Shown: positions 2,074 through 33,961 of the stretch, one piece after another
Layout of the letters: each line of letters opens with the position of its first letter
Numbering within the stretch: position 1 is the first letter of the stretch
IMG/VR virus record: IMGVR_UViG_2636415959_000001
Span: 1-33,961 of that record
Reading direction: 5' to 3' (one strand)
Length of the DNA: 33,961 nucleotides
Source of the DNA: a virus
Lineage: Duplodnaviria; Heunggongvirae; Uroviricota; Caudoviricetes
Translations under genes and position numbers: made by a program
Notes under the pieces: generated by a model
Told to the model about the DNA's origin: nothing
The model's input: only the letters and a program-made list of their open reading frames with translations
The model's database searches: none

Positions 2074-2534
2074 CACTTCACCTCCACGCCGATCCCGGCA
2101 ATGACACAAGCTCGCTCTATAGCTTCTTTCACCCAGCGCTTATAGGTTTCCGGATGGAATACTTCGCTTTTCCCGGTACCGCTCCAGAACGCTTTTGACG
2201 TAATATCTGGCAGGGTGATGGTCAACGGTTTACCAGAAGTGACATCGCTAACCACTCTCTCCCAGCGGTCGCCAGTCTGCGATTCAAGACGCTGAATTAA
2301 CTCCCCAATACTTAAAGGGGCGATCAACTGCTGGCGTAAGCGCTGAATCTCCGCCGCCATGTAGTAACCGGTTTTGCTCCAGGTATCTACATCATCACCG
2401 GCCATATCCGGTTCCATCGTCGCCATCAGAACGGCGTCGTGATAGTCCTGGCTGCCATTGGTGATCGCGACAGCGTAGGTATCACTGTTTTCGCGCTTAT
2501 GGATAAGCACGACAGGGTTAGTGATTTTGCTCAT
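2073..2534 (-). CDS. Hypothetical early protein (153 aa)
   Basis: ORF in the same leftward operon; overlapping stop/start with neighbours. Confidence 0.55.
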   Translation of the reverse strand: MSKITNPVVLIHKRENSDTYAVAITNGSQDYHDAVLMATMEPDMAGDDVDTWSKTGYYMAAEIQRLRQQLIAPLSIGELIQRLESQTGDRWERVVSDVTSGKPLTITLPDITSKAFWSGTGKSEVFHPETYKRWVKEAIERACVIAGIGVEVK

Positions 2535-2743
2535 TCCGCTGTCTCCCGCTCAGCTTCGATGATGGCATCTACAGCCATCACCAGGGTTTTGGCGAGGTCG
2601 TCGTAATCCTGCCATGCATCATTGCTAAAAAAATTCGTGAGCATTACTGGCGCTATCTGCACAACGAGGTGCTGGCGATAGGTCATGCCACGGGGAGTAT
2701 CGATGCGCGGGCATGGGTAAGCTGAATGCTGGCCTTTGCTCAT
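2531..2743 (-). CDS. Hypothetical early protein (70 aa)
   Basis: Small ORF with 4-nt overlaps to both neighbours (operon packing). Confidence 0.45.
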   Translation of the reverse strand: MSKGQHSAYPCPRIDTPRGMTYRQHLVVQIAPVMLTNFFSNDAWQDYDDLAKTLVMAVDAIIEAERETAE

Positions 2744-2964
2744 CGTGTCGCCTCTCGTTGAATTGTCTTGTAGGCTCGCAACATATCGCGAGATTTTCCG
2801 GACAAAACCGTCTTCATGAAGAACATTCCACTACGGTTTGCAACTATTCCTGGTGTGCAGAGCAGCGTGGCGTCTACCACGCGGTTATGTTTACGGAACT
2901 CAAACACAGTGCTGGTGATCACGATGTTCGCTACGGCGCCATAGTCCTGATATTCGATTTTCAT
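2740..2964 (-). CDS. Hypothetical early protein (74 aa)
   Basis: Small ORF with 4-nt overlaps to both neighbours. Confidence 0.45.
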   Translation of the reverse strand: MKIEYQDYGAVANIVITSTVFEFRKHNRVVDATLLCTPGIVANRSGMFFMKTVLSGKSRDMLRAYKTIQREATR

Positions 2965-3527
2965 GCCAGATGCTCCTCAATAATTTTGAAAGCATCATCA
3001 CGGCATGGCATCACGACGAACTCAGGATTACCGTATGCAGTGTTGATCACTGGATCGAACTGAATGCGAACCGCTCCAGCCTCACCGGAAGGGCGTAACT
3101 GGATGGGAATAAACTTCCGCTCGCGACCAAACATCTTTTCCGGATAACTGAGGTATTCAGCCCGGATAACCGGATTGATACTGAAATCCACTTTTTTCGG
3201 GATGACGCGTTCCATATCAGGAAAGCGACCATCAACAAGTTTGATGCCGGTGATCGAAATCCGGCGTTCGAATGCGTCGCGGTGAATGGCAAACGCTTCT
3301 TTGTTAAATACCAGTTCAGTGGTTTCCGCTTTCGCCGGAACCGGCCCTTCAAACTGGACGATGATGTTTTTCTTCGTCCGGATGCCGTGCTCCATGCGCA
3401 GGGCTACATGCCCGTTAGTCGACTCGATATATTTCGGAGTGATGTGCACACCATTCAGGTAGTAACGGACATCATTTTTTGCTGCGCATACCAGAGCTGC
3501 GCGAATAAGTTTCGACTGGAGGATCAT
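2961..3527 (-). CDS. Truncated DNA polymerase III beta sliding clamp (DnaN)-like protein
   Basis: 188 aa; motifs ..NDVRYYLNGVHI.., ..KLVDGRFPDMERVIPKK.. and C-terminal ..FVVMPCR.. parallel E. coli DnaN segments (..HQDVRYYLNGMLF.., ..KLVDGRFPDYRRVLPKN.., ..YVVMPMRL) as I recall them; covers roughly clamp domain II and part of III only. Confidence 0.6.
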   Translation of the reverse strand: MILQSKLIRAALVCAAKNDVRYYLNGVHITPKYIESTNGHVALRMEHGIRTKKNIIVQFEGPVPAKAETTELVFNKEAFAIHRDAFERRISITGIKLVDGRFPDMERVIPKKVDFSINPVIRAEYLSYPEKMFGRERKFIPIQLRPSGEAGAVRIQFDPVINTAYGNPEFVVMPCRDDAFKIIEEHLA

Positions 3528-4365: not shown

Positions 4366-4869
4366 TCAGTGCAAAATGTGTTGAACGGGTATTGCTTCGC
4401 CGACACGTAACCGAACAGCAAGATCCATAAACATCTCGTCGAGAAAACCGCTGAACCACGAATGACCGTCTTCTTTCAGGCGCTGATCGTTGGCGGAGTA
4501 GAACTGGAAGACAGCCAGATATCGCTCCTGTGGTTTTTGCTCGATCAGTGCGCCTTCTACGTGTTCAATAAGCAGGTTCTCGATAAGCTGCCGCGTTAAG
4601 CCAAAAACAAACTTACCGGTTTTAAACTGATACTCACCGTCACGGAGGCCCCAGCGTTTTTCACATTCAATCAGGTAGGTAAGGGCGACTGTTCCGCGCA
4701 TGTGCTTACAGATGATTTCAGCCCACTCGTGCTGCTCGGCAGCAGTTAGCTCGTGGTCTCCACTGCGTTTTTCATCCATCATCCATGCAGGGAAATTCAT
4801 ACCAGTCCTTTCATGGATATCTTTCAGCCTGGCGACAAGCTGCTTGATGTTTTCGTTATTTCCTGCCAT
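4366..4869 (-). CDS. Hypothetical protein (167 aa)
   Basis: ORF with plausible start; no recognised motif. Confidence 0.5.
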   Translation of the reverse strand: MAGNNENIKQLVARLKDIHERTGMNFPAWMMDEKRSGDHELTAAEQHEWAEIICKHMRGTVALTYLIECEKRWGLRDGEYQFKTGKFVFGLTRQLIENLLIEHVEGALIEQKPQERYLAVFQFYSANDQRLKEDGHSWFSGFLDEMFMDLAVRLRVGEAIPVQHILH

Positions 4870-4964
4870 CAGTTAATTCCTCCGCTGCATGTTTCTTTTT
4901 CACGTAATCAACAACCTCGCTCAGAAGTTCGTCGATAATTAATTTTCCTGAATCCGTCAGGTAT

Positions 4965-5222
4965 TCAGGTGTGTTTATTAATTTCTATGGCATTTTGATA
5001 TGCGTTTTTGATAGTGGAGTCACCCTCATATCTGCTAAGCCCAACCCCAGTTAATCCTTCAAAACGTAATAAAAGCTGATTCATGAAGTGATCATTTACT
5101 TCTACGGTTTCAATTTTGTTATCTGGAAGTTTTATAATCAGTAGGTTTCCACCGGTATTACGCTTGAGTCGCGCTAATGCCGCATTAGCAATCCGGCGTC
5201 GATAGGTATCGATAATATTCAT
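4965..5222 (-). CDS. Hypothetical small protein (85 aa), AT-rich gene
   Basis: ORF in the AT-rich island next to the repressor; basic N-terminus (..YRRRIANAALARLKRN..). Confidence 0.5.
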   Translation of the reverse strand: MNIIDTYRRRIANAALARLKRNTGGNLLIIKLPDNKIETVEVNDHFMNQLLLRFEGLTGVGLSRYEGDSTIKNAYQNAIEINKHT

Positions 5223-5328
5223 AGTTAGTACCCATAAGCTTTCTTAAGATAAAGAAGAGCGATTGCTTCGTAACCGCAGGACGCATAAAGGCATGCTGTT
5301 CTGTATGCCGTTTTATCTTTGATGAAAG

Positions 5329-5715
5329 TCATACGAAGCGCCTCACAGCTAAAGAAGCGACTACCCGACCATGAATTTTGATATCTTTCAGCTCATCGGT
5401 ATTGAGGGTGAAGGTTTCGTAATGATGGTTGTCCGAAATAATTTTCAATGAACCACAAACTAATGGCTCAACTCTCTTAATAAAAAGGCACGGACGGCCA
5501 AATACATCCATCGTATAAACATAAATGCCAGGGGTTAGCGTGCGGCCACCGCAATCAACGAAAGCCACAACCTCACATGGTTCGATGGTCGGCTGCATTG
5601 AGTCTCCCTCCATCATGCAGCTCTTAACACGGTTACCAAAGTCATTAATGTTGTCAGAGCCGAACAGCATTTGAGGTGTTTTAATTGGCTGATTAATTGC
5701 GATAGCGTTTTGCAT
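5329..5715 (-). CDS. Standalone S24 (LexA/CI/UmuD-type) peptidase-domain protein without HTH
   Basis: 128 aa; GDSMQP serine motif and downstream ..LFIKRVE.. lysine motif parallel the C-terminal domain of the adjacent CI (..GNSMEPVI.. / ..GWKRLKI..); no N-terminal DNA-binding domain; RBS GAGGAA 7 nt upstream. Confidence 0.6.
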   Translation of the reverse strand: MQNAIAINQPIKTPQMLFGSDNINDFGNRVKSCMMEGDSMQPTIEPCEVVAFVDCGGRTLTPGIYVYTMDVFGRPCLFIKRVEPLVCGSLKIISDNHHYETFTLNTDELKDIKIHGRVVASLAVRRFV

Positions 5716-5788
5716 TTTAATTTCCTCAGGGTGAGTTTATCCCCACGCAAAAAGGTGTTATTTATGATTAAATGTGTTAATTAGTTAG

Positions 5789-6082
5789 TTAAATAGCAGA
5801 GAACATTTTTTTAATGTCAGGATGGTCATCTATGATTTTTTTAGCATCATCACATGCTTCTTCATATGACTTGAAGAAATCAACCAGAACAAAATAATTA
5901 TCTACACGTTCGTAGATAGCGAATTCCAAACCATCAATAAAAGTGGTGTTAAATTCGTAATCAAAATCATTCTGATGAGGCTGTGCAGCTCGTAAATAAA
6001 TCCAGTGTGAATTTGCTGCTTTAAGCTTGGCGTGGATATCAAATGCCTGGCTCGCTGGGTTTGGTTGGGAGGTTGTATTCAT
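5789..6082 (-). CDS. Hypothetical protein (97 aa), first gene leftward of the repressor
   Basis: ORF in AT-rich context downstream of the cI terminator and the OL-like palindromes. Confidence 0.5.
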   Translation of the reverse strand: MNTTSQPNPASQAFDIHAKLKAANSHWIYLRAAQPHQNDFDYEFNTTFIDGLEFAIYERVDNYFVLVDFFKSYEEACDDAKKIIDDHPDIKKMFSAI

Positions 6083-6253: not shown

Positions 6254-6946
6254 TCAGAAGATTGTTGATACCCAAAACAGCCTTCCTAAAACCTCAAGAC
6301 TATCCATGTCTACTTCTTCGTCAGGGTATTCATCAGAGTTATAGCTTCTGATTGTCACCTTGTCTGGCCCAGATCTGTAGAGGATTTTTAACCTTTTCCA
6401 TCCACCTTGGTTGATGCCGTAAATTTTACCATCAACGATACGCTTGTCATGGCAGTTTATAGCAACAGTAGAGCCATCAGCGATCACTGGCTCCATGCTA
6501 TTCCCGTGTGCAGCAAAGCATAGAACGCCATCACCATCACTATTAGCTCCCACCTTTCGCAATGTTGCTTTGGAAAACCTAAGTTTTTTGCCATTGTAAT
6601 CATCATTAAGAGCGCTGCCATCTCCACATGCGAACTCGATATCCTTCAAGTAAGGCACCTCTACCTCATCATCCTCAAGCGGCGTTTGCTTATCCCATGG
6701 ATCTATACCAAACATCCTTTGTTCTGGAGTTTTTGCGGGCCCCATGGTGCCTTCACCAGTGCTTAACCATATTGGATCTACATCCAACGCTTTGGCTATA
6801 TCCACGATTTTTCCGCTGGACTGGGCTTTTCCTGAGGTTAGTTTTTGTATGGCCCCCTGGCTTACCCCAACCCTATGCGCTAATTGACTTTGTGTAGCCC
6901 CGGCATGAGCCATCGCCAGCCTTAGTCTTTCTGCAAGTGTGTTCAT
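6254..6946 (-). CDS. cI: CI-like phage repressor (HTH + S24 peptidase)
   Basis: 230 aa; N-terminal HTH (..QSQLAHRVGVSQGAIQKLTSGK..); C-terminal autocleavage domain (GNSMEP, KRLK); divergent from the cro-like gene. Confidence 0.9.
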   Translation of the reverse strand: MNTLAERLRLAMAHAGATQSQLAHRVGVSQGAIQKLTSGKAQSSGKIVDIAKALDVDPIWLSTGEGTMGPAKTPEQRMFGIDPWDKQTPLEDDEVEVPYLKDIEFACGDGSALNDDYNGKKLRFSKATLRKVGANSDGDGVLCFAAHGNSMEPVIADGSTVAINCHDKRIVDGKIYGINQGGWKRLKILYRSGPDKVTIRSYNSDEYPDEEVDMDSLEVLGRLFWVSTIF

Positions 6947-23421: not shown

Positions 23422-23570
23422 CGGCTGAATACCTCACTGATCGCTTCTTTGACTGCGCCAGTTACTGGCGCATTAATCCCTTCGAATTGCTGAATATGCC
23501 GATCAGTGAAATTCCCTTGCTGGTCAGTCAGGCAAACAGGATAGAGCAGGAGAAACGCACACATGGCTGA
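23152..23570 (+). CDS. Tail assembly chaperone, predicted -1 frameshift fusion product
   Basis: Slippery heptamer TTTTTTC (23403-23409) in the 0 frame (GGT TTT TTC); a -1 shift enters the overlapping ORF that ends at 23570. Confidence 0.5.
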
Positions 23571-25530
23571 ATTTGAGCTTAAGGCGTTGATCACCGGTGT
23601 CGACAGGCTTTCTCCCGCGCTGTCGAAAATGCAAAAGAAAATCCGGGGATTTAAACGCCAGGCGGAAGAAGCGTCAAAGGGTGGGCTGGCGCTTGGTGGC
23701 GGACTGGCAGCGGGTCTGACGCTTTCCCTGAAATCTTATGCCGATCAGGAAAACGCCGCCACCGGGCTGAAAGTCGCCATGATGGATGCGAATGGCGAGG
23801 TTGGAAAGAGCTTTCAGGACATCAATAAACTGGCTATTGGCCTGGGTAACCAGCTACCCGGTACAACGGCTGATTTCCAGAACATGATGCAGATGCTGGT
23901 GCGTCAGGGGATCCCGGCAGAAAACATTCTTGGCGGTGTGGGTAAAGCGACAGCTTATCTTGCGGTACAACTGAAAAAAACACCGGAAGCGGCTGCTGAG
24001 TTTGCTGCAAAGATGCAGGATGCTACCGGAACGGCGTCAGAAGACATGATGGGGCTGTTCGACACTATCCAGAAGGCGTTTTATCTGGGCGTTGACGATA
24101 CCAACATGTTGTCCTTCTTCACTAAAACCAGTTCTGTTCTGAAGATGGTGAACAAGGACGGTCTTCAGGCTGCACAGAGCCTTGCCCCCATCAGCGTCAT
24201 GATGGATCAGATGGGGATGAACGGGGAGTCGGCAGGTAATGCCCTGCGAAAAGTTATCCAGTCCGGATTAAGCGTTAAGAAAATCAGGGACGTCAATAAA
24301 ATCATGGCCCGCCAGAAACTCGGGGTACAGCTCGATTTTACTGACGGCAAAGGAAGTTTTGGCGGTCTTGATAACATGTTCAGGCAACTGGCAAAGCTGC
24401 GAAAACTGACCGACGTTAAGCGAACAGGCGTACTTAAGGCAATATTTGGTGATGATGCCGAAACCCTTCAGGTGGTCAATGCACTAATCGATAAAGGAAA
24501 GGATGGTTACGATCAGATCCAGCAGAAGATGAATAAACAGGCCAGCCTGAATAAACGTGTTCAGGCACAGCTTGGTACGCTGTCCAACCTGTGGGAGGCA
24601 ATGACGGGGACCGCAACTAACGGCCTTGCGGCTATTGGCGGCGCATTTTCTGGTGACGCCAAAAATATCACGCAATGGCTGGGGGAGTTGGGGGAAAAAT
24701 TCACGAAGTTTGCGGATGAAAATCCCCGGGTTATTCGCGGCGTCGTCGGGCTTGCTGCCGGTCTTGCGATTCTGAAACTGGGATTGATGGGCGTGGGCAG
24801 TGCCATCAGTATCGTCAGCAGGATCATGTCGATGACGCCGATTGGCATGATTGCGACGGCGATTGCCTTGGCTGCGGGATTAATTATCACTAACTGGGAT
24901 GTTGTTGGACCTTATTTCAAGAAGCTCTGGGAAACCATTGGTCCTTATTTTGAGGCTGGCTGGGAACTTCTGAAGAAGGTTTTTGCCTGGTCGCCGCTGG
25001 GGATGGTAATCAATAACTGGGGACCGGTTGTTAAGTGGTTTCAGGATATGTGGGACAAGCTGAAGCCAATTATTGAGTGGTTTACCGACAGTTCCGGTGA
25101 CACGGTCGATGCCATTAACTCGGCGCAGTGGGGCGCGGGTGCTTATGATGCTTATGGGACGGGAATACCGGCGCGGGGATACACACCTTATCCGGCGGTA
25201 GATCCGGCTCAGTCAAACAACGCCTCCGGTGACACGGTCGATGCCATTAACTCGGCGCAGTGGGGCGCGGGTGCTTATGATGCTTATGGGACGGGAATAC
25301 CGGCGCGGGGATACACACCTTATCCGGCGGTAGATCCGGCTCAGTCAAACAACGCCTCCGATGCTACAGGCCCGAATCCCTTCATGATTAACAAAGCTTC
25401 TGCGCCAAAAGTTGACGGTGAGATCAAGGTCTCTTTTGTGAATTCGCCTCCGGGTATGCGGGTTATGGAAACGCGATCCAGCGGTTTTGATATAAATCAC
25501 GATGTTGGCTATACGCATATTGGCAGATGA
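23563..25530 (+). CDS. Tail tape measure protein
   Basis: 655 aa; helical/Gly-Ala-rich membrane-like segments; contains a perfect in-frame 132-bp tandem duplication. Confidence 0.85.
   Translation: MAEFELKALITGVDRLSPALSKMQKKIRGFKRQAEEASKGGLALGGGLAAGLTLSLKSYADQENAATGLKVAMMDANGEVGKSFQDINKLAIGLGNQLPGTTADFQNMMQMLVRQGIPAENILGGVGKATAYLAVQLKKTPEAAAEFAAKMQDATGTASEDMMGLFDTIQKAFYLGVDDTNMLSFFTKTSSVLKMVNKDGLQAAQSLAPISVMMDQMGMNGESAGNALRKVIQSGLSVKKIRDVNKIMARQKLGVQLDFTDGKGSFGGLDNMFRQLAKLRKLTDVKRTGVLKAIFGDDAETLQVVNALIDKGKDGYDQIQQKMNKQASLNKRVQAQLGTLSNLWEAMTGTATNGLAAIGGAFSGDAKNITQWLGELGEKFTKFADENPRVIRGVVGLAAGLAILKLGLMGVGSAISIVSRIMSMTPIGMIATAIALAAGLIITNWDVVGPYFKKLWETIGPYFEAGWELLKKVFAWSPLGMVINNWGPVVKWFQDMWDKLKPIIEWFTDSSGDTVDAINSAQWGAGAYDAYGTGIPARGYTPYPAVDPAQSNNASGDTVDAINSAQWGAGAYDAYGTGIPARGYTPYPAVDPAQSNNASDATGPNPFMINKASAPKVDGEIKVSFVNSPPGMRVMETRSSGFDINHDVGYTHIGR
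25093..25356. repeat. Perfect tandem duplication (2 x 132 bp) inside the tape measure gene
   Basis: 25093-25224 and 25225-25356 read identical by eye (TCCGGTGACACGGTCGATGCC...CAAACAACGCC), encoding two copies of a 44-aa unit. Confidence 0.9.
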
Positions 25531-25546
25531 CGGAACCAGATATAAT
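25520..25546 (+). promoter_or_regulatory. Putative sigma70 promoter of the moron gene
   Basis: TTGGCA (25520-25525), 15-bp spacer (short), consensus TATAAT (25541-25546); overlaps the tape measure stop. Confidence 0.4.
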
Positions 25547-25582
25547 TTGTCTTTAAGTTTGTTATCAACTGAAGGGAAATCT

Positions 25583-25960
25583 ATGGGTCTGTTACATGCC
25601 ATTATAGGTAATGCCGGTGAAATTAATGCATCAGATGCACAACAGGAATTAGGGGCTGTTTTAGGTGAGGGAGAAAATGTCGAACTTGCCTATAAACTCA
25701 TTCGTGACCAAATTATTCTGACTAACAGAAGGTTAATTTTTATTGATAAGCAGGGTGTCACAGGGAAAAAAGTAGAGTATCGTTCGATTCCTTATAAATC
25801 TGTGACAAACTTTTCTATTGAAACCGCCGGGCATCTTGATCTTGATGCTGAAATGAAGATATGGATTTCTGGTATTGCAGAACCGATAAAAAAACAGTTC
25901 AGTAAAGGAGCAAACATTTATAAATTGCAGGCTCATCTGGCTCAAAAAATAGCAGGGTAA
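25583..25960 (+). CDS. AT-rich moron gene: hypothetical 125-aa protein, possibly a bacterial PH-like fold
   Basis: ATG 25583 with RBS GAAGGGA; codon usage markedly AT-richer than flanking tail genes; own promoter-like element and terminator; ..ILTNRRLIFIDKQGVTGKKVEYRSIPYKSVTNFSIE.. (fold assignment is a tentative recollection). Confidence 0.6.
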   Translation: MGLLHAIIGNAGEINASDAQQELGAVLGEGENVELAYKLIRDQIILTNRRLIFIDKQGVTGKKVEYRSIPYKSVTNFSIETAGHLDLDAEMKIWISGIAEPIKKQFSKGANIYKLQAHLAQKIAG

Positions 25961-25986
25961 ACCTTACATTAATTTATGTCTTTCAT

Positions 25987-26008
25987 GCCCACTTCGGTGG
26001 GCTTTTTT
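25987..26008 (+). terminator. Intrinsic terminator after the moron gene
   Basis: GCCCAC-TTCG-GTGGGC hairpin followed by TTTTTT. Confidence 0.65.
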
Positions 26009-26023
26009 ATATCCGGAGTTTAT

Positions 26024-27352
26024 ATGACGTGGAAAGACAGGCTTCAGGACGCGTCATTTCGCGGTGTGCCGTTTAAGGTTGAAGAAGAAAGTGCGGGAAC
26101 AGGTCGCCGTGTGGAAACACACGAATATCCGAACCGCGACAAACCCTATACCGAAGATCTGGGAAAAGTCACTTTCCGCCCGTCCATCACGGCTTATGTG
26201 GTGGGCGATGACTGCTTTGACCAGCGCGATCGCCTGATTGACGCGCTGAATAAACCCGGTCCCGGCACGCTTGTCCACCCGACTTACGGTGAGCTGAAAG
26301 TCTGTGTTGACGGAGAGGTTCGGGTCAGCACATCGAAAAGTGAAGGGCGTATTGTCCGCTTTGACCTGAAGTTTGTCGAAGCGGGAGAACTCTCTTACCC
26401 CACATCAGGTGCGGCGACGGCGCAGACGCTGATGTCATCCTGTTCTGCACTGGATGACTGCATCAGTGACAGCTTCAGCGGTTTCAGTATCGATGGTGTG
26501 GCGGATTTCGTGCAGAACGACGTTATCGGTAATGCCAGCATAATGCTGGGGTATGTTTCTGATGCGATGAAAGTGGTGGATTCTGCCGTATCGGATGCCG
26601 CCAGGCTGTTGCAGGGGGATATCTCGGTACTTCTGCCGCCGCCATCGTCAGGCAAAAATTTCGTTGAGCAGGTGCAGAAAATGTGGCGTACCGGGAAACG
26701 CCTTTATGGTAACGCCAGCGACCTGGTCACCATGATCAAAACGCTTTCCGGTGTCAGCCTCGGCAGCGATCTGCAACCGCGCGGCGTCTGGAAAACGGAC
26801 AGTAAAACCACCGCCACGGCGACGCAGCAGCGTAACGTGGTTGCCAGTACCCTTCGTACGACCGCAATCAGCGAAGCGGCGTATGCCGTCACCCAATTGC
26901 CTGCGCCAACAACTTCCGCGGTGATGCAGAATTCCTCAGTGGGGCAGGCTACAACACCTGCGCAGAGCACTGGCTGGCCTTCCGTCACGCATCCGGCACT
27001 GAACAATGCACCGGCGGTGAAAAACACGGTTGACCTGCCGACGTGGGAAGAACTGACTGACATTCGCGACACACTGAATACGGCAATTGATAAGGAGTTG
27101 TCCCGTACAACCAGTGATGCGCTGTTTCTGGCGCTGCGCCGGGTGAAAGCAGATCTGAATGCGGATATCAACACGCGCCTTGAACAGTCTGCACGGATCA
27201 TTCAGCGCACACCGGATGAGGTTTTACCCGCGCTGGTGCTGGCGGCGACCTGGTTTGATAACGCGGCGCGTGACGCGGACATTATCCGGCGTAATGCCAT
27301 TACGCATCCCGGCTTTGTGCCGGTGATCCCTCTGAAGGTGCCAGTGCAATGA
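26024..27352 (+). CDS. DNA circularization protein (Mu N-like)
   Basis: 442 aa from ATG 26024 (RBS GGAG); N-terminal MTWKDRLQDASFRGVPFKVEEE.. typical of Mu N-like proteins as recalled; position after tape measure. Confidence 0.7.
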   Translation: MTWKDRLQDASFRGVPFKVEEESAGTGRRVETHEYPNRDKPYTEDLGKVTFRPSITAYVVGDDCFDQRDRLIDALNKPGPGTLVHPTYGELKVCVDGEVRVSTSKSEGRIVRFDLKFVEAGELSYPTSGAATAQTLMSSCSALDDCISDSFSGFSIDGVADFVQNDVIGNASIMLGYVSDAMKVVDSAVSDAARLLQGDISVLLPPPSSGKNFVEQVQKMWRTGKRLYGNASDLVTMIKTLSGVSLGSDLQPRGVWKTDSKTTATATQQRNVVASTLRTTAISEAAYAVTQLPAPTTSAVMQNSSVGQATTPAQSTGWPSVTHPALNNAPAVKNTVDLPTWEELTDIRDTLNTAIDKELSRTTSDALFLALRRVKADLNADINTRLEQSARIIQRTPDEVLPALVLAATWFDNAARDADIIRRNAITHPGFVPVIPLKVPVQ

Positions 27353-31024: not shown

Positions 31025-31825
31025 ATGCATCGTATAGACACGAAAACCGCGCAGAAGGATAAGTTCGGCGCGGGTAAGAACGGTTTTACCCGTGGTAATC
31101 CCCAGACTGGTACGCCTGCCACCGATCTGGATGATGACTACTTTGACATGTTGCAGGAGGAGCTTTGCAGCGTTGTGGAGGCATCCGGTGCCAGCCTGGA
31201 GAAGGGGCGGCATGACCAGTTGCTTACCGCACTTCGCGCACTGCTGTTAAGCCGCAATAATCCGTTTGGTGATATCAAATCGGACGGCACTGTGCAAACG
31301 GCTCTCGAAAACCTTGGTTTGGGAGAAGGTTCAGCATTACCGGTTGGTGTGCCTGTTCCGTGGCCTTCAGCTACACCACCGACAGGCTGGTTGAAATGCA
31401 ATGGTGCAGCTTTTTCTGCTGAAGAATACCCGGAACTGGCAAAGGCTTACCCGACAAATAAATTGCCTGATTTACGCGGTGAGTTTATTCGTGGCTGGGA
31501 TGATGGACGCGGTGTGGATACGGGGAGGGCAATATTATCATCTCAGGGCGATGCCATACGTAATATCTATGGTGAGTTCAAGACTGTAAACGCCGAAAAT
31601 TATTCAATATGGGAATCAGTAGACTCTTTTAAGGGGGCAGTGGTGCCTTTGAACCCCTCAACGGACAATAGTTATTTCTCCATAATCAATAGTATGTTGA
31701 CACAAAGAACAGATGGCTCTGTTTACCCAACAGTGATTGGCCTTGATGCTTCAAGAATTGTTCCAACTGCAAACGAAAACCGTCCACGAAATATTGCATT
31801 TAACTTTATCGTGAGGGCTGCATAA
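31025..31825 (+). CDS. Tail fibre protein with tail-collar domain
   Basis: 266 aa; ..[49 protein letters not shown].. fits the phage tail-collar motif; C-terminal part AT-rich. Confidence 0.75.
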
Positions 31826-32427
31826 TGGATAACGCTGTATTAAATAGCGAGCTTATTGCCACGAAGGCGGGGAATATTACCGTCTATAGCTATGATGGTG
31901 AAACTCGGGAATATATTTCCACTTCAAATGAATATCTTGCCGTTGGCGTCGGTATCCCGGCATGTTCTTGTTTAGATGCACCAGTTACACATAAAGCTGG
32001 TTATGCAATCTGCCGTTCTGCAGATTTTAACTCATGGGAATATGTGCCAGACCATCGCGGTGAAATCATCTATAGCACCGAAACAGGAGAATCGAAAGAA
32101 ATCACAGCTCTGGGTGATTACCCTGAAAATACAACCACTATCGCCCCGTTAATGCCATATGATAAATGGGATGGTGAGAAATGGGTGACAGATACTGAGG
32201 CACAGCATAGTGCCGCAGTAGACGCGGCAGAAGCACAGCGCCAGTCACTGATTGATGCAGCAATGGCTTCCATTAGTCTGATTCAGCTGAAATTACAGGC
32301 CGGACGTAAACTGACGCAGGCAGAAACAACCAGACTTAACGCCGTGCTGGATTACATTGACGCGGTGACGGCAACAGATACCAGCACCGCGCCGGATGTC
32401 ATCTGGCCTGAACTGCCGGAGGCGTAG
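31825..32427 (+). CDS. Tail fibre assembly protein (Tfa)
   Basis: 200 aa directly after the tail fibre (ATGA overlap); typical Tfa composition. Confidence 0.7.
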   Translation: MDNAVLNSELIATKAGNITVYSYDGETREYISTSNEYLAVGVGIPACSCLDAPVTHKAGYAICRSADFNSWEYVPDHRGEIIYSTETGESKEITALGDYPENTTTIAPLMPYDKWDGEKWVTDTEAQHSAAVDAAEAQRQSLIDAAMASISLIQLKLQAGRKLTQAETTRLNAVLDYIDAVTATDTSTAPDVIWPELPEA

Positions 32428-32818
32428 GCCATTCAATATCGAGTGCTGTTGAAGTATTAATACGCATCAATAGCACTCGATATTCTTTCCATGCCAGTAA
32501 CAGTTTCGTTTCATCATCTGTTGCCATACCTAAATCAACCGCATCCTGAAGCGGAGCTATTACATTCGTTGCCTCTGCTATCAGTGCAGATTTCTTTTCA
32601 TCATTTATTAAGGCTAATTGTTCTGGTGTTGGAGAAGGACGGTCAACAATGACAGGATGACCGTTCTCACCACAGGTAATCATTTTTGTTACACTCTGTG
32701 CATTAATCAGTGTTTTCCACTCTGATTCCGAGATTTCCACTGCATCATCAGGAATATTGGTGCCGTGAAATTCAGTCGAATAAAATCCGTTTGTCGATGC
32801 AGAATAAAAATATGACAT
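32399..32818 (-). CDS. Tail fibre assembly protein, second copy in inverted orientation
   Basis: 139 aa from ATG 32818 (MSYFYSASTNGFYSTEF.., a typical Tfa N-terminus); convergent with the plus-strand Tfa. Confidence 0.65.
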   Translation of the reverse strand: MSYFYSASTNGFYSTEFHGTNIPDDAVEISESEWKTLINAQSVTKMITCGENGHPVIVDRPSPTPEQLALINDEKKSALIAEATNVIAPLQDAVDLGMATDDETKLLLAWKEYRVLLMRINTSTALDIEWPTPPAVQAR

Positions 32819-32822
32819 TTCG

Positions 32823-33221
32823 TTAATATCCCATTGCAATGTAATACGCATCAGCAGATGAACCATATCCTGAACCGGGCGACACTGTAATATTAAATCC
32901 AGTGTTCTGGACATTTGTCGCCGATACAGTCGGCTGCCCTGACGCGCCAGTAACGTTCAATGTAACTGTGACAGCAAGGACTCTTGAGAATGTCATCGGG
33001 AACCTTATCTCGTATGTTGAAGAAACATTCGGGGAGCCATTCAACTGACCGCACTGTAAAATTAAACCAGACGGAAATTTTTGCGCAGCAGCCGTTGCGG
33101 TATTACTTGACGCGAACAGGCTCATATCAGGTATCTGATTCGCCCCTGTACCTACATTCCTTTTAGCTGCTTCTCCCAAACCAACGTTTACGAAAATAAA
33201 AATCCGCCACAGCGTAATCAA
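32823..33221 (-). other. Inverted tail-fibre C-terminal (receptor-binding-like) coding segment lacking its own N-terminal part
   Basis: Minus-strand ORF ending 4 nt before the inverted Tfa; track start is a non-ATG codon inside the dinI terminator; first in-frame ATG at 33125 has no clear RBS. Confidence 0.45.
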
Positions 33222-33250: not shown

Positions 33251-33493
33251 TTACTCACTCACTAACCAAAATTCAGCCTCTTCAAACATTTCCTGGACTA
33301 CTGCACTGATCCGTTCCTTCTCGTGCTTGCTGGCGTCAGTGTTGATCGCCGGTAGTGTCATCATCGGTTTAACCCGAACATCAGCGTCAGGGAAAATCCG
33401 GTGAACCCTCTTGGTCAATTCGCCCAGAATGATATCTTTTGCACCGGGAAGACCATCAAAATTCCTTTTGTCATAAACGAGTTCCACGAACAT
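33251..33493 (-). CDS. dinI: DinI-family protein
   Basis: 80 aa; ..FPDADVRV.. and acidic C-terminus ..EEAEFWLVSE parallel E. coli DinI (..DDWFVSE) as recalled; LexA box in its promoter. Confidence 0.8.
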   Translation of the reverse strand: MFVELVYDKRNFDGLPGAKDIILGELTKRVHRIFPDADVRVKPMMTLPAINTDASKHEKERISAVVQEMFEEAEFWLVSE

Positions 33494-33508
33494 TGCTCAT
33501 TGCCTCTT

Positions 33509-33528
33509 TGCTGGATGGATATACAGTA
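33509..33528. promoter_or_regulatory. LexA (SOS) box in the divergent dinI-like / umuD'-like promoter region
   Basis: Minus-strand reading TACTGTATATCCATCCAGCA (CTGT-N8-CCAG), very close to the E. coli dinI box as I recall it; lies between -35 TTGCTG and -10 TATACT (plus strand) and directly downstream of -10 TATAAA (minus strand). Confidence 0.6.
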
Positions 33529-33571
33529 TTTATACTGTGTTTTTATCCGGTATTCAAGAGAGGGCGTAAAC

Positions 33572-33961
33572 ATGGGCTTTCCTTCACCTGCTGCAGATTA
33601 TGTTGAAACACGAATCTCCCTCGATCAGCAGTTAATCAGCCAGCCCGCAGCGACTTATTTCATGCGTGCATCGCGTTCACATTTCAGGGAAGGGATAATT
33701 CAGGGGGCGCTGCTTGTTGTTGATGCCTCACTTTCAGCCTGTGATGGCTCGCTGCTGATCTGCGCGATAGACGGAGAATTTAGGATCAAGCGATATCGGA
33801 CACATCCTCAACCCCACCTCGTTAATCTGGAGAACGGGAGAAAGGAGGCGCTGCCAGTAGATGATGGCGGTTACAGTTCTGCACCCGCTGTATTTGGGGT
33901 GCTTACTTACATCATCAATGACGCCAGGAATGCAGAGTTTGATGATTGCCCGGTGATGTGA
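33572..33961 (+). CDS. UmuD'-like protein (S24-family fold, N-terminally pre-truncated, catalytic Ser not conserved)
   Basis: 129 aa from ATG 33572 (RBS GAGAGGG); starts MGFPSPAADYVE.., aligning to E. coli UmuD from Gly25 (..CGFPSPAADYVEQ..); GDSM position reads RSHF; Lys of ..EFRIKR.. retained; stop is the last codon of the window. Confidence 0.75.
   Translation: MGFPSPAADYVETRISLDQQLISQPAATYFMRASRSHFREGIIQGALLVVDASLSACDGSLLICAIDGEFRIKRYRTHPQPHLVNLENGRKEALPVDDGGYSSAPAVFGVLTYIINDARNAEFDDCPVM

What the first reader, a model, noticed from the sequence alone, without database searches (positions are those of the whole stretch)
25520..26008. Self-contained AT-rich moron between tape measure and DNA-circularization genes
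A complete transcription unit sits in the 493-bp gap between two tightly packed tail genes: a consensus -10 TATAAT (25541-25546) with a -35-like TTGGCA, RBS GAAGGGA, a 125-aa ORF (25583-25960), and a GCCCAC-TTCG-GTGGGC + T6 terminator (25987-26008). The gene is visibly AT-richer than the GC-rich structural genes on both sides, which suggests separate acquisition. The protein has no structural-protein character and may adopt a bacterial PH-like fold (tentative). Morons in late/tail operons of other phages (lambda lom/bor, P2 fun and tin) typically act in the lysogen as exclusion or conversion factors, so this is a candidate uncharacterised prophage-encoded defence or exclusion gene.
Basis: partly seen in the sequence, partly recalled or inferred. 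Interest (0 to 1): 0.7.

Follow-up and report, generated by a model that had tools for sequence, protein, structure and literature searches.

The report
Prophage cargo gene: bacterial PH-domain protein
A small AT-rich gene for a ring-forming bacterial PH-domain protein of unknown function sits as optional cargo between two tail genes of an E. coli prophage, in a slot where related phages carry nothing or other small genes, so it is a real "moron", but there is no evidence yet that it defends against phages.

Summary
ORF 25583-25960 is real and is a full-length PF08000 (bPH_1/PHb1) protein. It is about 60% identical to the solved Shewanella structures 3DCX and 3HSA and keeps all eight published binding-site residues. 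Its GC is 0.38 against 0.52 for the window.

It is optional cargo in an SfV/SfII-type prophage. Of 1,096 E. coli genomes matching the 1.8-kb junction query, 27 carry it, and IS1 disrupts it in 4 of those. The same slot is otherwise empty (60-bp gap) or holds at least five unrelated small envelope proteins.

Every junction state has them, including empty sites, so they are a conserved backbone terminator and cargo inserts upstream of it.

The -35, -10 and RBS are conserved between the E. coli and Edwardsiella copies although synonymous sites are saturated (dN/dS 0.02-0.03). That supports an own promoter, but no expression data exist.

In other temperate phages bPH_1 genes sit in lysogeny modules, as already noted in 2010. 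A defence role is untested and weakly supported: there is no PADLOC hit, and chromosomal homologues are highly conserved stand-alone genes outside defence islands. This is a new member of a known kind, of moderate interest.

The parts
23563..25530 (+). Tail tape measure gene (upstream backbone gene). Its last ~40 nt are linked to the cargo type and contain the -35 element.
   Evidence: PF10145 E 8e-27 and phrog_28/17727 tape measure. The 3' end allele differs between cargo states.
25520..25525 (+). -35-like hexamer TTGGCA (5/6), 15-nt spacer to the -10; lies inside the TMP coding sequence.
   Evidence: Sequence. The block TATTGGCAGAT is invariant between the E. coli and Edwardsiella cassettes, where it is non-coding.
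25541..25546 (+). -10 hexamer TATAAT (consensus), first element inside the inserted DNA.
   Evidence: Sequence. It is the only composite of this quality in the window, P about 0.003 locally. GATATAA is invariant in A2, but the Edwardsiella copies read TATAAC.
25536..25968 (.). Inserted cargo cassette relative to the empty site of SfII (about 433 bp: -10, leader, RBS, PH gene, short 3' UTR).
   Evidence: Alignment of junction states, A1. Gap is 493 bp here against 60 bp in empty sites. GC 0.37.
25571..25577 (+). Ribosome-binding site GAAGGGA, 5 nt before the ATG.
   Evidence: Sequence. GAAGGG is invariant in A2. TGAAGGGA is shared with the 170-aa cassette.
25583..25960 (+). Cargo gene: 125-aa PHb1 / bPH_1 (PF08000, DUF1696) protein, soluble.
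   Evidence: PF08000 163 bits over the full length. 3DCX/3HSA at about E 1e-39. AF2 pLDDT 82, TM 0.80-0.85 to 3DCX. dN/dS 0.02-0.03. 8 of 8 site residues present. No hydrophobic segment.
25987..26008 (+). Intrinsic terminator (6-bp GC stem, TTCG loop, T6). It is a conserved backbone element that precedes the RBS of N in all junction states.
   Evidence: Present in empty SfII and Yersinia sites and, with compensatory stem changes, in all plus-strand cargo states. Annotated as a terminator in SfII.
26024..27352 (+). Mu N-like 'DNA circularization' / baseplate hub gene (downstream backbone gene).
   Evidence: PF07157 E 3e-34 and phrog_184 baseplate hub.

Best explanation
The window is a near-complete SfV/SfI/SfII-type temperate prophage of E. 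coli with a Mu-type tail. This phage group has a cargo slot between the tape measure gene and the N-like hub gene, arranged as: TMP stop, optional cargo, conserved intrinsic terminator, N.

Here the slot holds a horizontally acquired low-GC gene for a canonical PHb1 (bPH_1) protein. By about 60% identity to 3DCX and 3HSA it should form the same dome-shaped C5 ring, with an acidic binding site built between neighbouring subunits.

Most likely mode of action (inferred):
1. In the lysogen the gene is transcribed from its own weak sigma-70 promoter (TTGGCA, 15 nt, TATAAT).
2. That transcript stops at the resident terminator, so the baseplate genes stay silent.
3. During lytic growth the Q-antiterminated late transcript reads through both.
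4. The ring binds a basic segment of a conserved, probably membrane-associated, cellular partner.
5. This acts as a lysogenic-conversion factor that protects the lysogen. The protection could be envelope-stress tolerance and/or interference with genome entry by superinfecting phages.

Steps shown: insertion, identity, fold, purifying selection, dispensability, conserved non-coding elements.
Steps inferred: lysogen expression, ring formation, partner, phenotype.

Component confidences: optional cargo in a hotspot 0.95; own promoter active in the lysogen 0.6; acts on a conserved host partner 0.5; net anti-phage effect 0.3.
For: Backbone. The DNA is 96% identical to SfII, SfI and SfV. The window encodes integrase, CI, Q, terminase, portal, capsid, sheath, tube, TMP, N, P and baseplate J.

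Polymorphic slot. Of the 89 loci and the window where both the TMP C-terminus and N could be placed (90 junctions), 33 are empty and 57 are occupied. The cargo families are bPH_1; a 160-170-aa signal-peptide protein; a 176-aa N-terminal-TM protein; a 148-150-aa TM plus OB-fold protein on the minus strand; a 145-aa two-TM protein on the minus strand; and a 140-aa lipoprotein. Genome counts in E. coli are 178 (176-aa), 85 (170-aa), 72 (OB-fold) and 27 (PH).

Terminator. It is conserved in all states, with compensatory stem changes.

Gene is functional. dN/dS is 0.016-0.031 with pS about 0.73 between E. coli and Edwardsiella. Residues D42, D55, Q57, K63, E80, D86, D88 and E90 are all retained.

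Promoter. It is unique in the window, and the -35, -10 and RBS blocks are invariant while third-codon positions are about 49% identical. The 176-aa cassette also has its own extended -10 promoter.

Lysogeny association elsewhere. In ul36 the order is int, PH, ORF355, metalloprotease, CI. In a Vibrio 186-like prophage the order is CI, PH, SIR2, int. Among 143 neighbours of 44 IMG/VR copies, 16 match HTH_3, 9 S24, 5 integrase, 5 ImmA/M78, 2 Ltp and 2 GtrII.

Dispensable. IS1 disrupts the gene in 4 of 27 genomes, and the plaque-forming Edwardsiella phage EPP-1 carries it.

Conserved host partner. The protein is 60-66% identical to chromosomal copies across phyla. B. subtilis YozO is sigma-W induced and YvbH is peripheral-membrane (PMC2817789).
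Against: There are no expression data.

The spacer is 15 nt, and the Edwardsiella -10 reads TATAAC, which lacks the critical last T.

Some cargo in the same slot has no room for a promoter: the Pantoea 160-aa gene starts 14 nt after the TMP stop. So the slot may simply be a tolerated site within the late operon.

E. coli has no native PHb1, so the presumed partner must exist without it.

No conserved gene neighbour points to a partner.

PHb1 is the only non-envelope cargo in the slot, so arguing from the slot-mates is weak.

Xu et al. argue that the acidic surface is not suited to direct membrane binding.
Confidence: 0.45

Rival explanations
1. Dedicated anti-phage gene. The PHb1 ring is a single-protein superinfection-exclusion or defence factor that directly recognises a component of incoming phages (for example a tape measure or ejection protein at the cytoplasmic face) and blocks genome entry or assembly. 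This would resemble HK97 gp15, P22 SieA, or Tab and Tai.
For: It sits in a late-operon moron position next to the TMP, like HK97 gp15 (cited in PMC13190303). Tab and Tai are also morons. The slot-mates are small envelope proteins typical of Sie factors. In a Vibrio prophage the gene is adjacent to a defence-type SIR2 gene. One homologue lies beside KAP NTPase, DUF676 and Tpt1 genes. The Ltp exclusion lipoprotein appears among neighbours.
Against: There is no PADLOC or NCBIfam match and no paper. Conservation is extreme (dN/dS 0.02; 60% identity across phyla; identical site residues), which is the opposite of the diversification usual for proteins that recognise phage parts. Chromosomal copies are not in defence islands. 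The protein has no TM segment.
Confidence: 0.22
2. Late-gene accessory. The gene has no independent expression, is made only from the Q-dependent late transcript, and serves the phage's own lytic cycle (tail assembly, injection, lysis timing or host takeover).
For: It lies inside the tail operon on the same strand, with no terminator between the TMP and the gene. The promoter is suboptimal. The Pantoea cargo is directly coupled to the TMP. A plaque-forming phage, EPP-1, carries it.
Against: About two thirds of otherwise near-identical prophages lack any cargo, and the rest carry unrelated genes, two families of which are on the opposite strand. IS1 knock-outs persist. In other phage lineages the family sits in the lysogeny module, co-oriented with the repressor and integrase. 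The promoter blocks are conserved under saturated divergence.
Confidence: 0.15
3. Passenger with no current function in E. coli. It is a recently spread hitch-hiker kept only by linkage in a tolerated insertion site.
For: All 27 E. coli copies are at least 99% identical, so the spread is recent. The gene is rare, at 0.5% of genomes. IS1 disrupts it in 4 genomes. E. coli has no native PHb1 pathway.
Against: Purifying selection against the anciently diverged Edwardsiella copies is strong, with intact reading frames and conserved regulatory blocks. The same family has been recruited independently by Firmicute, Actinobacterial and Vibrio temperate phages.
Confidence: 0.12

Closest known systems
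PHb1 proteins of Pfam PF08000 (DUF1696): Shewanella loihica Shew_0819 (PDB 3DCX) and S. amazonensis Sama_0667-type (PDB 3HSA); Xu et al. 2010, PMC2817789
   Same: Same length (~125 aa). About 60% identity over the full length. Same fold (TM 0.80-0.85). All eight inter-protomer site residues and four of five perimeter residues are identical.
   Different: It is encoded on a prophage in a species that has no chromosomal copy. F85 is Leu. The oligomeric state was not determined here.
Phage-borne PHb1 genes: Lactococcus phage ul36 ORF124 and Microbacterium phage Min1 gp77
   Same: Same family, 37-39% identical. Both are temperate phages, and the gene is non-structural accessory cargo of unknown function. 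This was noted in 2010.
   Different: Those genes lie in or next to the lysogeny module or at a genome end. Here the gene is inside the tail operon, between the TMP and N.
HK97 gp15 moron (Cumby et al. 2012, J Bacteriol 194:5012; cited in PMC13190303)
   Same: A single small gene inserted in the tail gene cluster next to the tape measure gene of a temperate coliphage. It is absent from relatives and is expressed from the prophage (from established knowledge of the paper).
   Different: gp15 is an inner-membrane protein that blocks DNA entry. The PH protein has no TM segment and no known phenotype. There is no sequence relationship.
Classical late-operon morons and prophage hotspots: lambda bor/lom, P2 tin/fun/old, JBD26 Tab (PMC10884400), Tai (PMC11364771)
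   Same: Architecture: AT-rich optional cargo with its own promoter inside or beside a late operon, with variable content at a fixed position.
   Different: This position (the TMP/N junction of Mu-type tail modules) and its pre-existing terminator were not described in any paper I could find. The function is unknown.
B. subtilis PHb paralogues YozO, YvbH and YjqA
   Same: Same family. YozO belongs to the sigma-W envelope-stress regulon, and YvbH is a peripheral membrane protein. This is the only physiological lead for the family.
   Different: These are chromosomal. Group 2 members carry a C-terminal extension (3B77 matches here only at E 4e-6).

Membership tests
Pfam PF08000 bPH_1 / PHb1 (DUF1696), group 1 | Full-length match to the family HMM above the gathering threshold | tested here: met
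   163.2 bits against a cut-off of 27.7; residues 3-122 match profile positions 2-121 of 122. phrog_7115 E 6e-54.
Pfam PF08000 bPH_1 / PHb1 (DUF1696), group 1 | Single-domain protein of ~125 aa with a PH fold (beta-sandwich capped by a C-terminal helix) | tested here: met
   125 aa. AF2 model has pLDDT 82, strands from 33 to 107 and a helix at 112-124. Foldseek gives 3DCX at E 2e-13, TM 0.80/0.85.
Pfam PF08000 bPH_1 / PHb1 (DUF1696), group 1 | Conserved acidic inter-protomer site (D42, D55, Q57, K63, E80, D86, D88, E90 in PHb1(sl)) | tested here: met
   All eight are present at the same positions. In the 20-sequence alignment, seven of the eight are invariant columns and E90 is nearly invariant.
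Pfam PF08000 bPH_1 / PHb1 (DUF1696), group 1 | Dome-shaped C5 ring oligomer | not testable with these tools
   Inferred only, from about 60% identity to 3DCX and 3HSA, each of which has five chains in its entry (PMC2817789).
Phage moron (Juhala/Hendrix sense) | Present in some genomes and absent from otherwise colinear relatives, between genes that are adjacent in those relatives | tested here: met
   SfII, SfI and SfV have a 60-bp gap. The gene is in 27 of 1,096 E. coli genomes matching the junction query.
Phage moron (Juhala/Hendrix sense) | Nucleotide composition different from the flanking genes | tested here: met
   GC 0.378 against 0.518. GC3 0.29 against 0.57 and 0.61. Lowest 2% of windows.
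Phage moron (Juhala/Hendrix sense) | Own promoter upstream | tested here: inconclusive
   The motif TTGGCA-15-TATAAT is unique in the window (P about 0.003), and its blocks are conserved against Edwardsiella. However, the spacer is 15 nt, the Edwardsiella -10 is TATAAC, and no transcript data exist.
Phage moron (Juhala/Hendrix sense) | Own terminator downstream | tested here: met
   A terminator is present. It is a resident backbone element found in every junction state, including empty ones, and was not imported with the gene.
Phage moron (Juhala/Hendrix sense) | Expressed from the repressed prophage | not testable with these tools
   Needs RNA-seq, 5'-RACE or proteomics of a lysogen.
Known anti-phage defence or superinfection-exclusion proteins | Sequence match to a described defence family | tested here: not met
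   PADLOC-DB gives 0 hits at E<=1 and NCBIfam gives 0 hits. Foldseek against the PDB and BFVD finds no characterised defence protein.
Known anti-phage defence or superinfection-exclusion proteins | Membrane anchoring typical of injection-blocking Sie proteins (HK97 gp15, P22 SieA, T4 Imm) | tested here: not met
   The maximum 19-residue Kyte-Doolittle hydropathy is 0.58, with no signal peptide or lipobox. The other five cargo families in the slot each have an N-terminal hydrophobic segment or a lipobox.
Known anti-phage defence or superinfection-exclusion proteins | Enrichment of homologues in defence islands | tested here: not met
   Of seven distinct chromosomal contexts examined, six are ordinary metabolic or stress neighbourhoods and one (L011) has KAP NTPase, DUF676 and Tpt1 neighbours. 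The sample is small.
Known anti-phage defence or superinfection-exclusion proteins | Protection phenotype against phage | not testable with these tools
   Needs a cloning and challenge experiment.

The most novel reading that the evidence does not exclude
The PHb1 ring is a new kind of single-protein lysogenic-conversion factor. It caps the cytoplasmic face of a conserved inner-membrane assembly that incoming phages need for genome entry. Temperate phages from Firmicutes, Actinobacteria, Vibrio and Enterobacteria have each captured this host gene to exclude competitors. The junction between the tape measure gene and N, with its resident terminator, is a dedicated landing pad that lets such cargo be expressed in the lysogen without switching on the baseplate genes.
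Probability: 0.18. Interest if true: 0.75.

Novelty: new member of a known kind. Interest (0 to 1): 0.4.

Why it matters
PF08000/PHb1 has had crystal structures since 2008-2010 and is widespread and unusually conserved, yet it still has no known function or partner.

This prophage offers a clean experimental handle. E. coli has no chromosomal PHb1, and here a fully canonical copy sits in a compact cassette of about 430 bp with a putative lysogen promoter. Any phenotype, such as phage exclusion or envelope-stress tolerance, and any binding partner could therefore be assigned directly.

The comparison also defines a cargo hotspot in SfV/Mu-type tail modules that, in the papers I could search, had not been described. 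It has a conserved terminator and at least six unrelated small cargo genes, five of them envelope proteins. These are candidates for exclusion or conversion functions and occur in roughly a third of such E. coli prophages.

Tried and rejected
- PADLOC and NCBIfam scans of the PH protein gave no hits. PADLOC scans of the five other cargo proteins also gave no hits.
- The Rfam scan of the whole window found nothing.
- Foldseek against the PDB (to April 2026) and BFVD returned only the three 2007-2009 structural-genomics entries, then generic eukaryotic PH domains. No characterised viral protein matched.
- Literature searches on bPH_1/DUF1696/PF08000, YozO/YvbH/YjqA, PH domain plus prophage defence, ul36/bIL285 superinfection exclusion, SfV morons, tape-measure hotspots and PHb follow-ups found no functional study of the family after Xu et al. 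2010.
- The PH domains mentioned in the SNIPE paper are N-terminal membrane-targeting modules of a nuclease and are unrelated to this protein.
- The morons described in the SfIV and SfII papers are elsewhere, in the Q-lysis region.
- Tai and Tab are functional analogies only.
- I looked for a conserved operon partner among chromosomal homologues and found none.
- I considered PH plus SIR2 as a two-gene system. It rests on a single Vibrio prophage and I did not pursue it.
- I rejected the idea that the moron brought its own terminator.
- I rejected the longer 152-aa ORF from the ATG at 25502, because all homologues start at MG(L/F)L and the RBS precedes 25583.
Full report
**What is there.** The tape measure gene (TMP, 23563-25530; PF10145) ends at 25530, and the Mu N-like "DNA circularization"/baseplate hub gene (PF07157, phrog_184) starts at 26024. 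That leaves a 493-bp gap. The gap contains, in order:
- TTGGCA at 25520-25525, still inside the TMP;
- a 15-nt spacer;
- TATAAT at 25541-25546;
- GAAGGGA at 25571-25577;
- a 125-codon ORF at 25583-25960;
- the hairpin GCCCAC-TTCG-GTGGGC followed by T6, at 25987-26008. The terminator scan calls it and it folds at -12.7 kcal/mol, z = -2.2.

The gene's GC is 0.378 against 0.518 for the window, and only 2% of equally sized windows are as low. GC3 is 0.29, against 0.57 for TMP and 0.61 for N. The consensus scan missed the promoter only because it requires a 16-18-nt spacer. By my own count this is the only TATAAT in the window, on either strand, with a 5/6 or better -35 at 15-19 nt. The chance of such a composite in the shuffled upstream 103 nt is about 0.003.

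**What the protein is.** The tentative PH-fold guess is right, and the evidence is strong.
- The product matches Pfam PF08000 (bPH_1, formerly DUF1696) end to end, at 163 bits and E 3e-48.
- It matches phrog_7115, which has no assigned function.
- It aligns at about 60% identity (E about 1e-39) with the two solved Shewanella PHb1 proteins, 3DCX and 3HSA.
- An AlphaFold2 model (pLDDT 82) superposes on 3DCX with TM 0.80-0.85.

Xu et al. (2010, PMC2817789) showed that these proteins form dome-shaped C5 rings. The rings have a conserved, mostly acidic site built between neighbouring subunits from D42, D55, Q57, K63, E80, D86, D88 and E90. All eight residues are present at the same positions here. 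In an alignment of 20 homologues from several phyla, seven of the eight are invariant columns and E90 is nearly invariant. The protein has no hydrophobic segment, signal peptide or lipobox. Ring formation is inferred and was not tested.

**What the element is.** The window is a near-complete SfV/SfI/SfII-type temperate prophage. Its genes run in this order: integrase, CI repressor, primase-helicase, Q antiterminator, terminase, portal, capsid, sheath, tube, chaperone, TMP, N, P, baseplate and tail fibres. The flanking DNA is about 96% identical to Shigella phages SfII, SfI and SfV.

In those three phages the TMP and N are separated by only 60 bp. Among 5,426 complete E. coli genomes, 1,096 match the 1.8-kb junction query (tape measure 3′ end, cassette and 5′ part of N), and only 27 carry the PH cassette. 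All 27 copies are at least 99% identical. A more sensitive DNA search finds no other copy in the species. In 4 of the 27 genomes an IS1 element splits the gene. The gene is therefore optional and dispensable cargo, which is what the term "moron" means.

**The junction is a cargo hotspot.** I could place both the TMP end and the N start in 89 fetched loci plus the window (90 junctions). They come from E. coli, Shigella, Edwardsiella, Scandinavium, Buttiauxella, Atlantibacter, Citrobacter, Pantoea, Serratia, Yersinia and IMG/VR contigs. Of these, 33 are empty and 57 are occupied. The occupants fall into at least six unrelated families:
- bPH_1;
- a 160-170-aa protein with a signal peptide;
- a 176-aa protein with an N-terminal TM helix;
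- a 148-150-aa TM plus OB-fold (PF12869) protein on the opposite strand;
- a 145-aa two-TM protein on the opposite strand;
- a 140-aa lipoprotein.

All cassettes are AT-rich, with GC 0.31-0.42. In E. coli complete genomes the counts are 178 (176-aa), 85 (170-aa), 72 (OB-fold) and 27 (PH). PH is thus the rarest of the four E. coli cargos, and it is the only one that is not an envelope protein. None of the others matches PADLOC.

**Correction on the terminator.** The moron did not import the hairpin and T-run. A GC-rich hairpin followed by T5-T7 sits immediately before the RBS of N in every state of the junction, including the empty sites:
- SfII (empty): TCCCAC-TCCG-GTGGGA;
- Yersinia (empty): ACCCAC-TTCG-GTGGGT;
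- 166-aa and 160-aa cargo: ACCCGC-TyCG-GCGGGT;
- 140-aa cargo: AACCCACC-ATCA-GGTGGGTT.

The stems differ by compensatory changes, and SfII annotates the hairpin as a terminator. The layout is therefore: TMP stop, optional cargo, resident terminator, N.

Because the prophage encodes a Q-type antiterminator (PF03589, 10734-11357), late transcripts are expected to read through this terminator. That expectation rests on established knowledge of lambdoid late transcription. Non-antiterminated transcripts from a cargo promoter would stop there. The arrangement would keep baseplate genes silent in a lysogen that expresses the cargo. This is an inference.

**Evidence on expression.** There is no transcript evidence. 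The best indirect evidence is a phylogenetic footprint. Edwardsiella prophages and the plaque-forming Edwardsiella phage EPP-1 carry the same cassette at the same junction, at 87-90% amino-acid identity. Between the E. coli and Edwardsiella copies synonymous sites are saturated (pS about 0.73, third-position identity about 0.49), while dN/dS is 0.016-0.031. Against that background several blocks are invariant: TATTGGCAGAT (-35), GATATAA (-10), GAAGGG (RBS) and the entire hairpin plus T-run.

In Edwardsiella the -35 block lies in a non-coding remnant of an E. coli-type TMP 3' end. Its conservation there cannot be explained by coding constraint.

Three points weaken the promoter case. The Edwardsiella -10 reads TATAAC. 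The E. coli spacer is 15 nt. One cargo, in Pantoea, starts 14 nt after the TMP stop and so has no room for a promoter. On the other side, the 176-aa cassette has a recognisable extended -10 promoter of its own.

**Where the family sits in other phages.**
- In Lactococcus phage ul36 the homologue (ORF124) lies between the integrase and the repressor block.
- In a Vibrio 186-like prophage it lies between CI and a defence-type SIR2 gene next to the integrase.
- In Microbacterium phage Min1 it is the last gene of the genome.
- I scanned the two genes on either side of 44 further IMG/VR copies (143 proteins). The commonest families were Cro/CI HTH (16), S24 peptidase (9), integrase (5) and ImmA/M78 (5). 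The Ltp exclusion lipoprotein and GtrII each appeared twice.

The family is thus recurrently recruited as lysogeny-side cargo. Xu et al. had already pointed this out for ul36 and Min1.

**What it probably does.** No database or paper assigns a function. Two facts shape my reading.

First, the phage copy is a fully canonical PHb1. It has identical site residues, is under very strong purifying selection, and is 60-66% identical to chromosomal copies in Photobacterium, Clostridium, Paenibacillus and Bacillus. That argues for a conserved cellular partner and against a fast-evolving phage target.

Second, chromosomal homologues are stand-alone genes in ordinary metabolic or stress neighbourhoods. 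They have no conserved partner and, with one possible exception, are not in defence islands.

The only physiological leads come from B. subtilis: YozO belongs to the sigma-W envelope-stress regulon and YvbH is a peripheral membrane protein.

I therefore favour the following. The gene is a lysogen-expressed conversion factor whose ring docks, through its acidic inter-subunit sites, on a basic segment of a conserved membrane-associated assembly and protects the lysogen. Exclusion of superinfecting phages at the genome-entry step is one specific and testable version of this idea. My confidence is 0.45 for the package as a whole and about 0.3 for a net anti-phage effect.

The rivals are:
- a dedicated phage-sensing exclusion protein (0.22);
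- a late-operon accessory that serves the lytic cycle (0.15);
- a functionless passenger (0.12).

**Comparison with known systems and novelty.** The protein is a member of PF08000 group 1; every testable defining feature is met. The unit fits the moron definition in presence/absence, position and composition. The own-promoter criterion is inconclusive, and the terminator criterion is met only through a resident element. It is not a member of any described defence family.

The nearest functional analogy is the HK97 gp15 moron beside the tape measure gene. That protein is an inner-membrane protein and is unrelated in sequence. The morons reported in SfIV and SfII lie elsewhere, in the Q-lysis region. 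None of the papers I could search describes the TMP/N junction as a hotspot.

Overall this is a new member of a known kind: real, cleanly delimited and experimentally tractable. The defence interpretation that drove the original score is not supported by any direct evidence.

Noticed in passing
window 25093-25360: The tape measure gene carries a perfect in-frame 132-bp tandem duplication (2.0 copies, 100% match). This makes it 655 aa, against 611 aa in SfII and in E. coli 30EVA2. If the protein is functional, the tail should be longer by about 44 residues' worth.
   Followed up: partly
window 25531-26023 and loci L001-L113 (junction between the tape measure gene and N): The junction is a cargo hotspot with a conserved resident terminator. 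It holds at least five other unrelated small AT-rich genes: a 170-aa secreted protein, a 176-aa TM protein, a 148-aa TM plus OB-fold protein, a 145-aa two-TM protein and a 140-aa lipoprotein. None has a PADLOC hit, and only the OB-fold one has a Pfam hit. Three of them are in 335 E. coli genomes in total.
   Followed up: partly
L114 (E. coli EC_J_9, NZ_CP075062) 2136-3289: An IS1B element is inserted in the PH gene at the same point in four E. coli genomes (H66-H69), splitting it into 33-aa and 100-aa fragments.
   Followed up: yes
L006 3350-3500, L024 3408-3560 (Edwardsiella cassettes): The Edwardsiella PH cassettes carry about 65 nt of a non-coding remnant of an E. coli-type tape measure 3' end, including its stop codon, upstream of the gene. 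In E. hoshinae, N is 97-100% identical to E. coli N but the TMP C-terminus is only 49% identical. A mosaic recombination boundary therefore lies exactly at this junction.
   Followed up: partly
L008 3950-6237 (Vibrio phage 10N.286.45.B12_PE001): A PHb1 homologue lies directly upstream of, and co-oriented with, a 612-aa SIR2-domain protein that matches PADLOC Aga_SIR2 and PDC-S65 models. The pair sits between the CI repressor and the integrase. It could be a two-gene unit or just neighbouring cargo.
   Followed up: no
window 31305-31328 and 33170-33193: A 24-nt inverted repeat (92% complementary, with an AAACC..GGTTT core) brackets about 1.9 kb containing two opposed tail-fibre-assembly genes (31825-32427 on the plus strand, 32399-32914 on the minus strand). 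It looks like a Gin/Cin/Pin-type invertible host-range segment. No invertase gene lies inside the window.
   Followed up: partly
window ~4366-6082 (minus strand): A second low-GC stretch lies beside the CI repressor (6254-6946). It holds three small ORFs: 167 aa and 97 aa with no Pfam hit, and 128 aa that is a truncated S24 peptidase-like protein. These may be further lysogeny-side cargo or immunity-region remnants.
   Followed up: partly
window 33401-33961: The last ORF of the window is a 186-aa S24 peptidase-family protein (UmuD- or repressor-like), located downstream of the tail-fibre region at the prophage end.
   Followed up: no
L115 (E. coli TUM18781 plasmid pMTY18781-3, NZ_AP023208): One PH-bearing SfV-type element is recorded on a 70-kb circular 'plasmid' record and not on the chromosome. 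This could be a phage-plasmid state or an assembly artefact.
   Followed up: no
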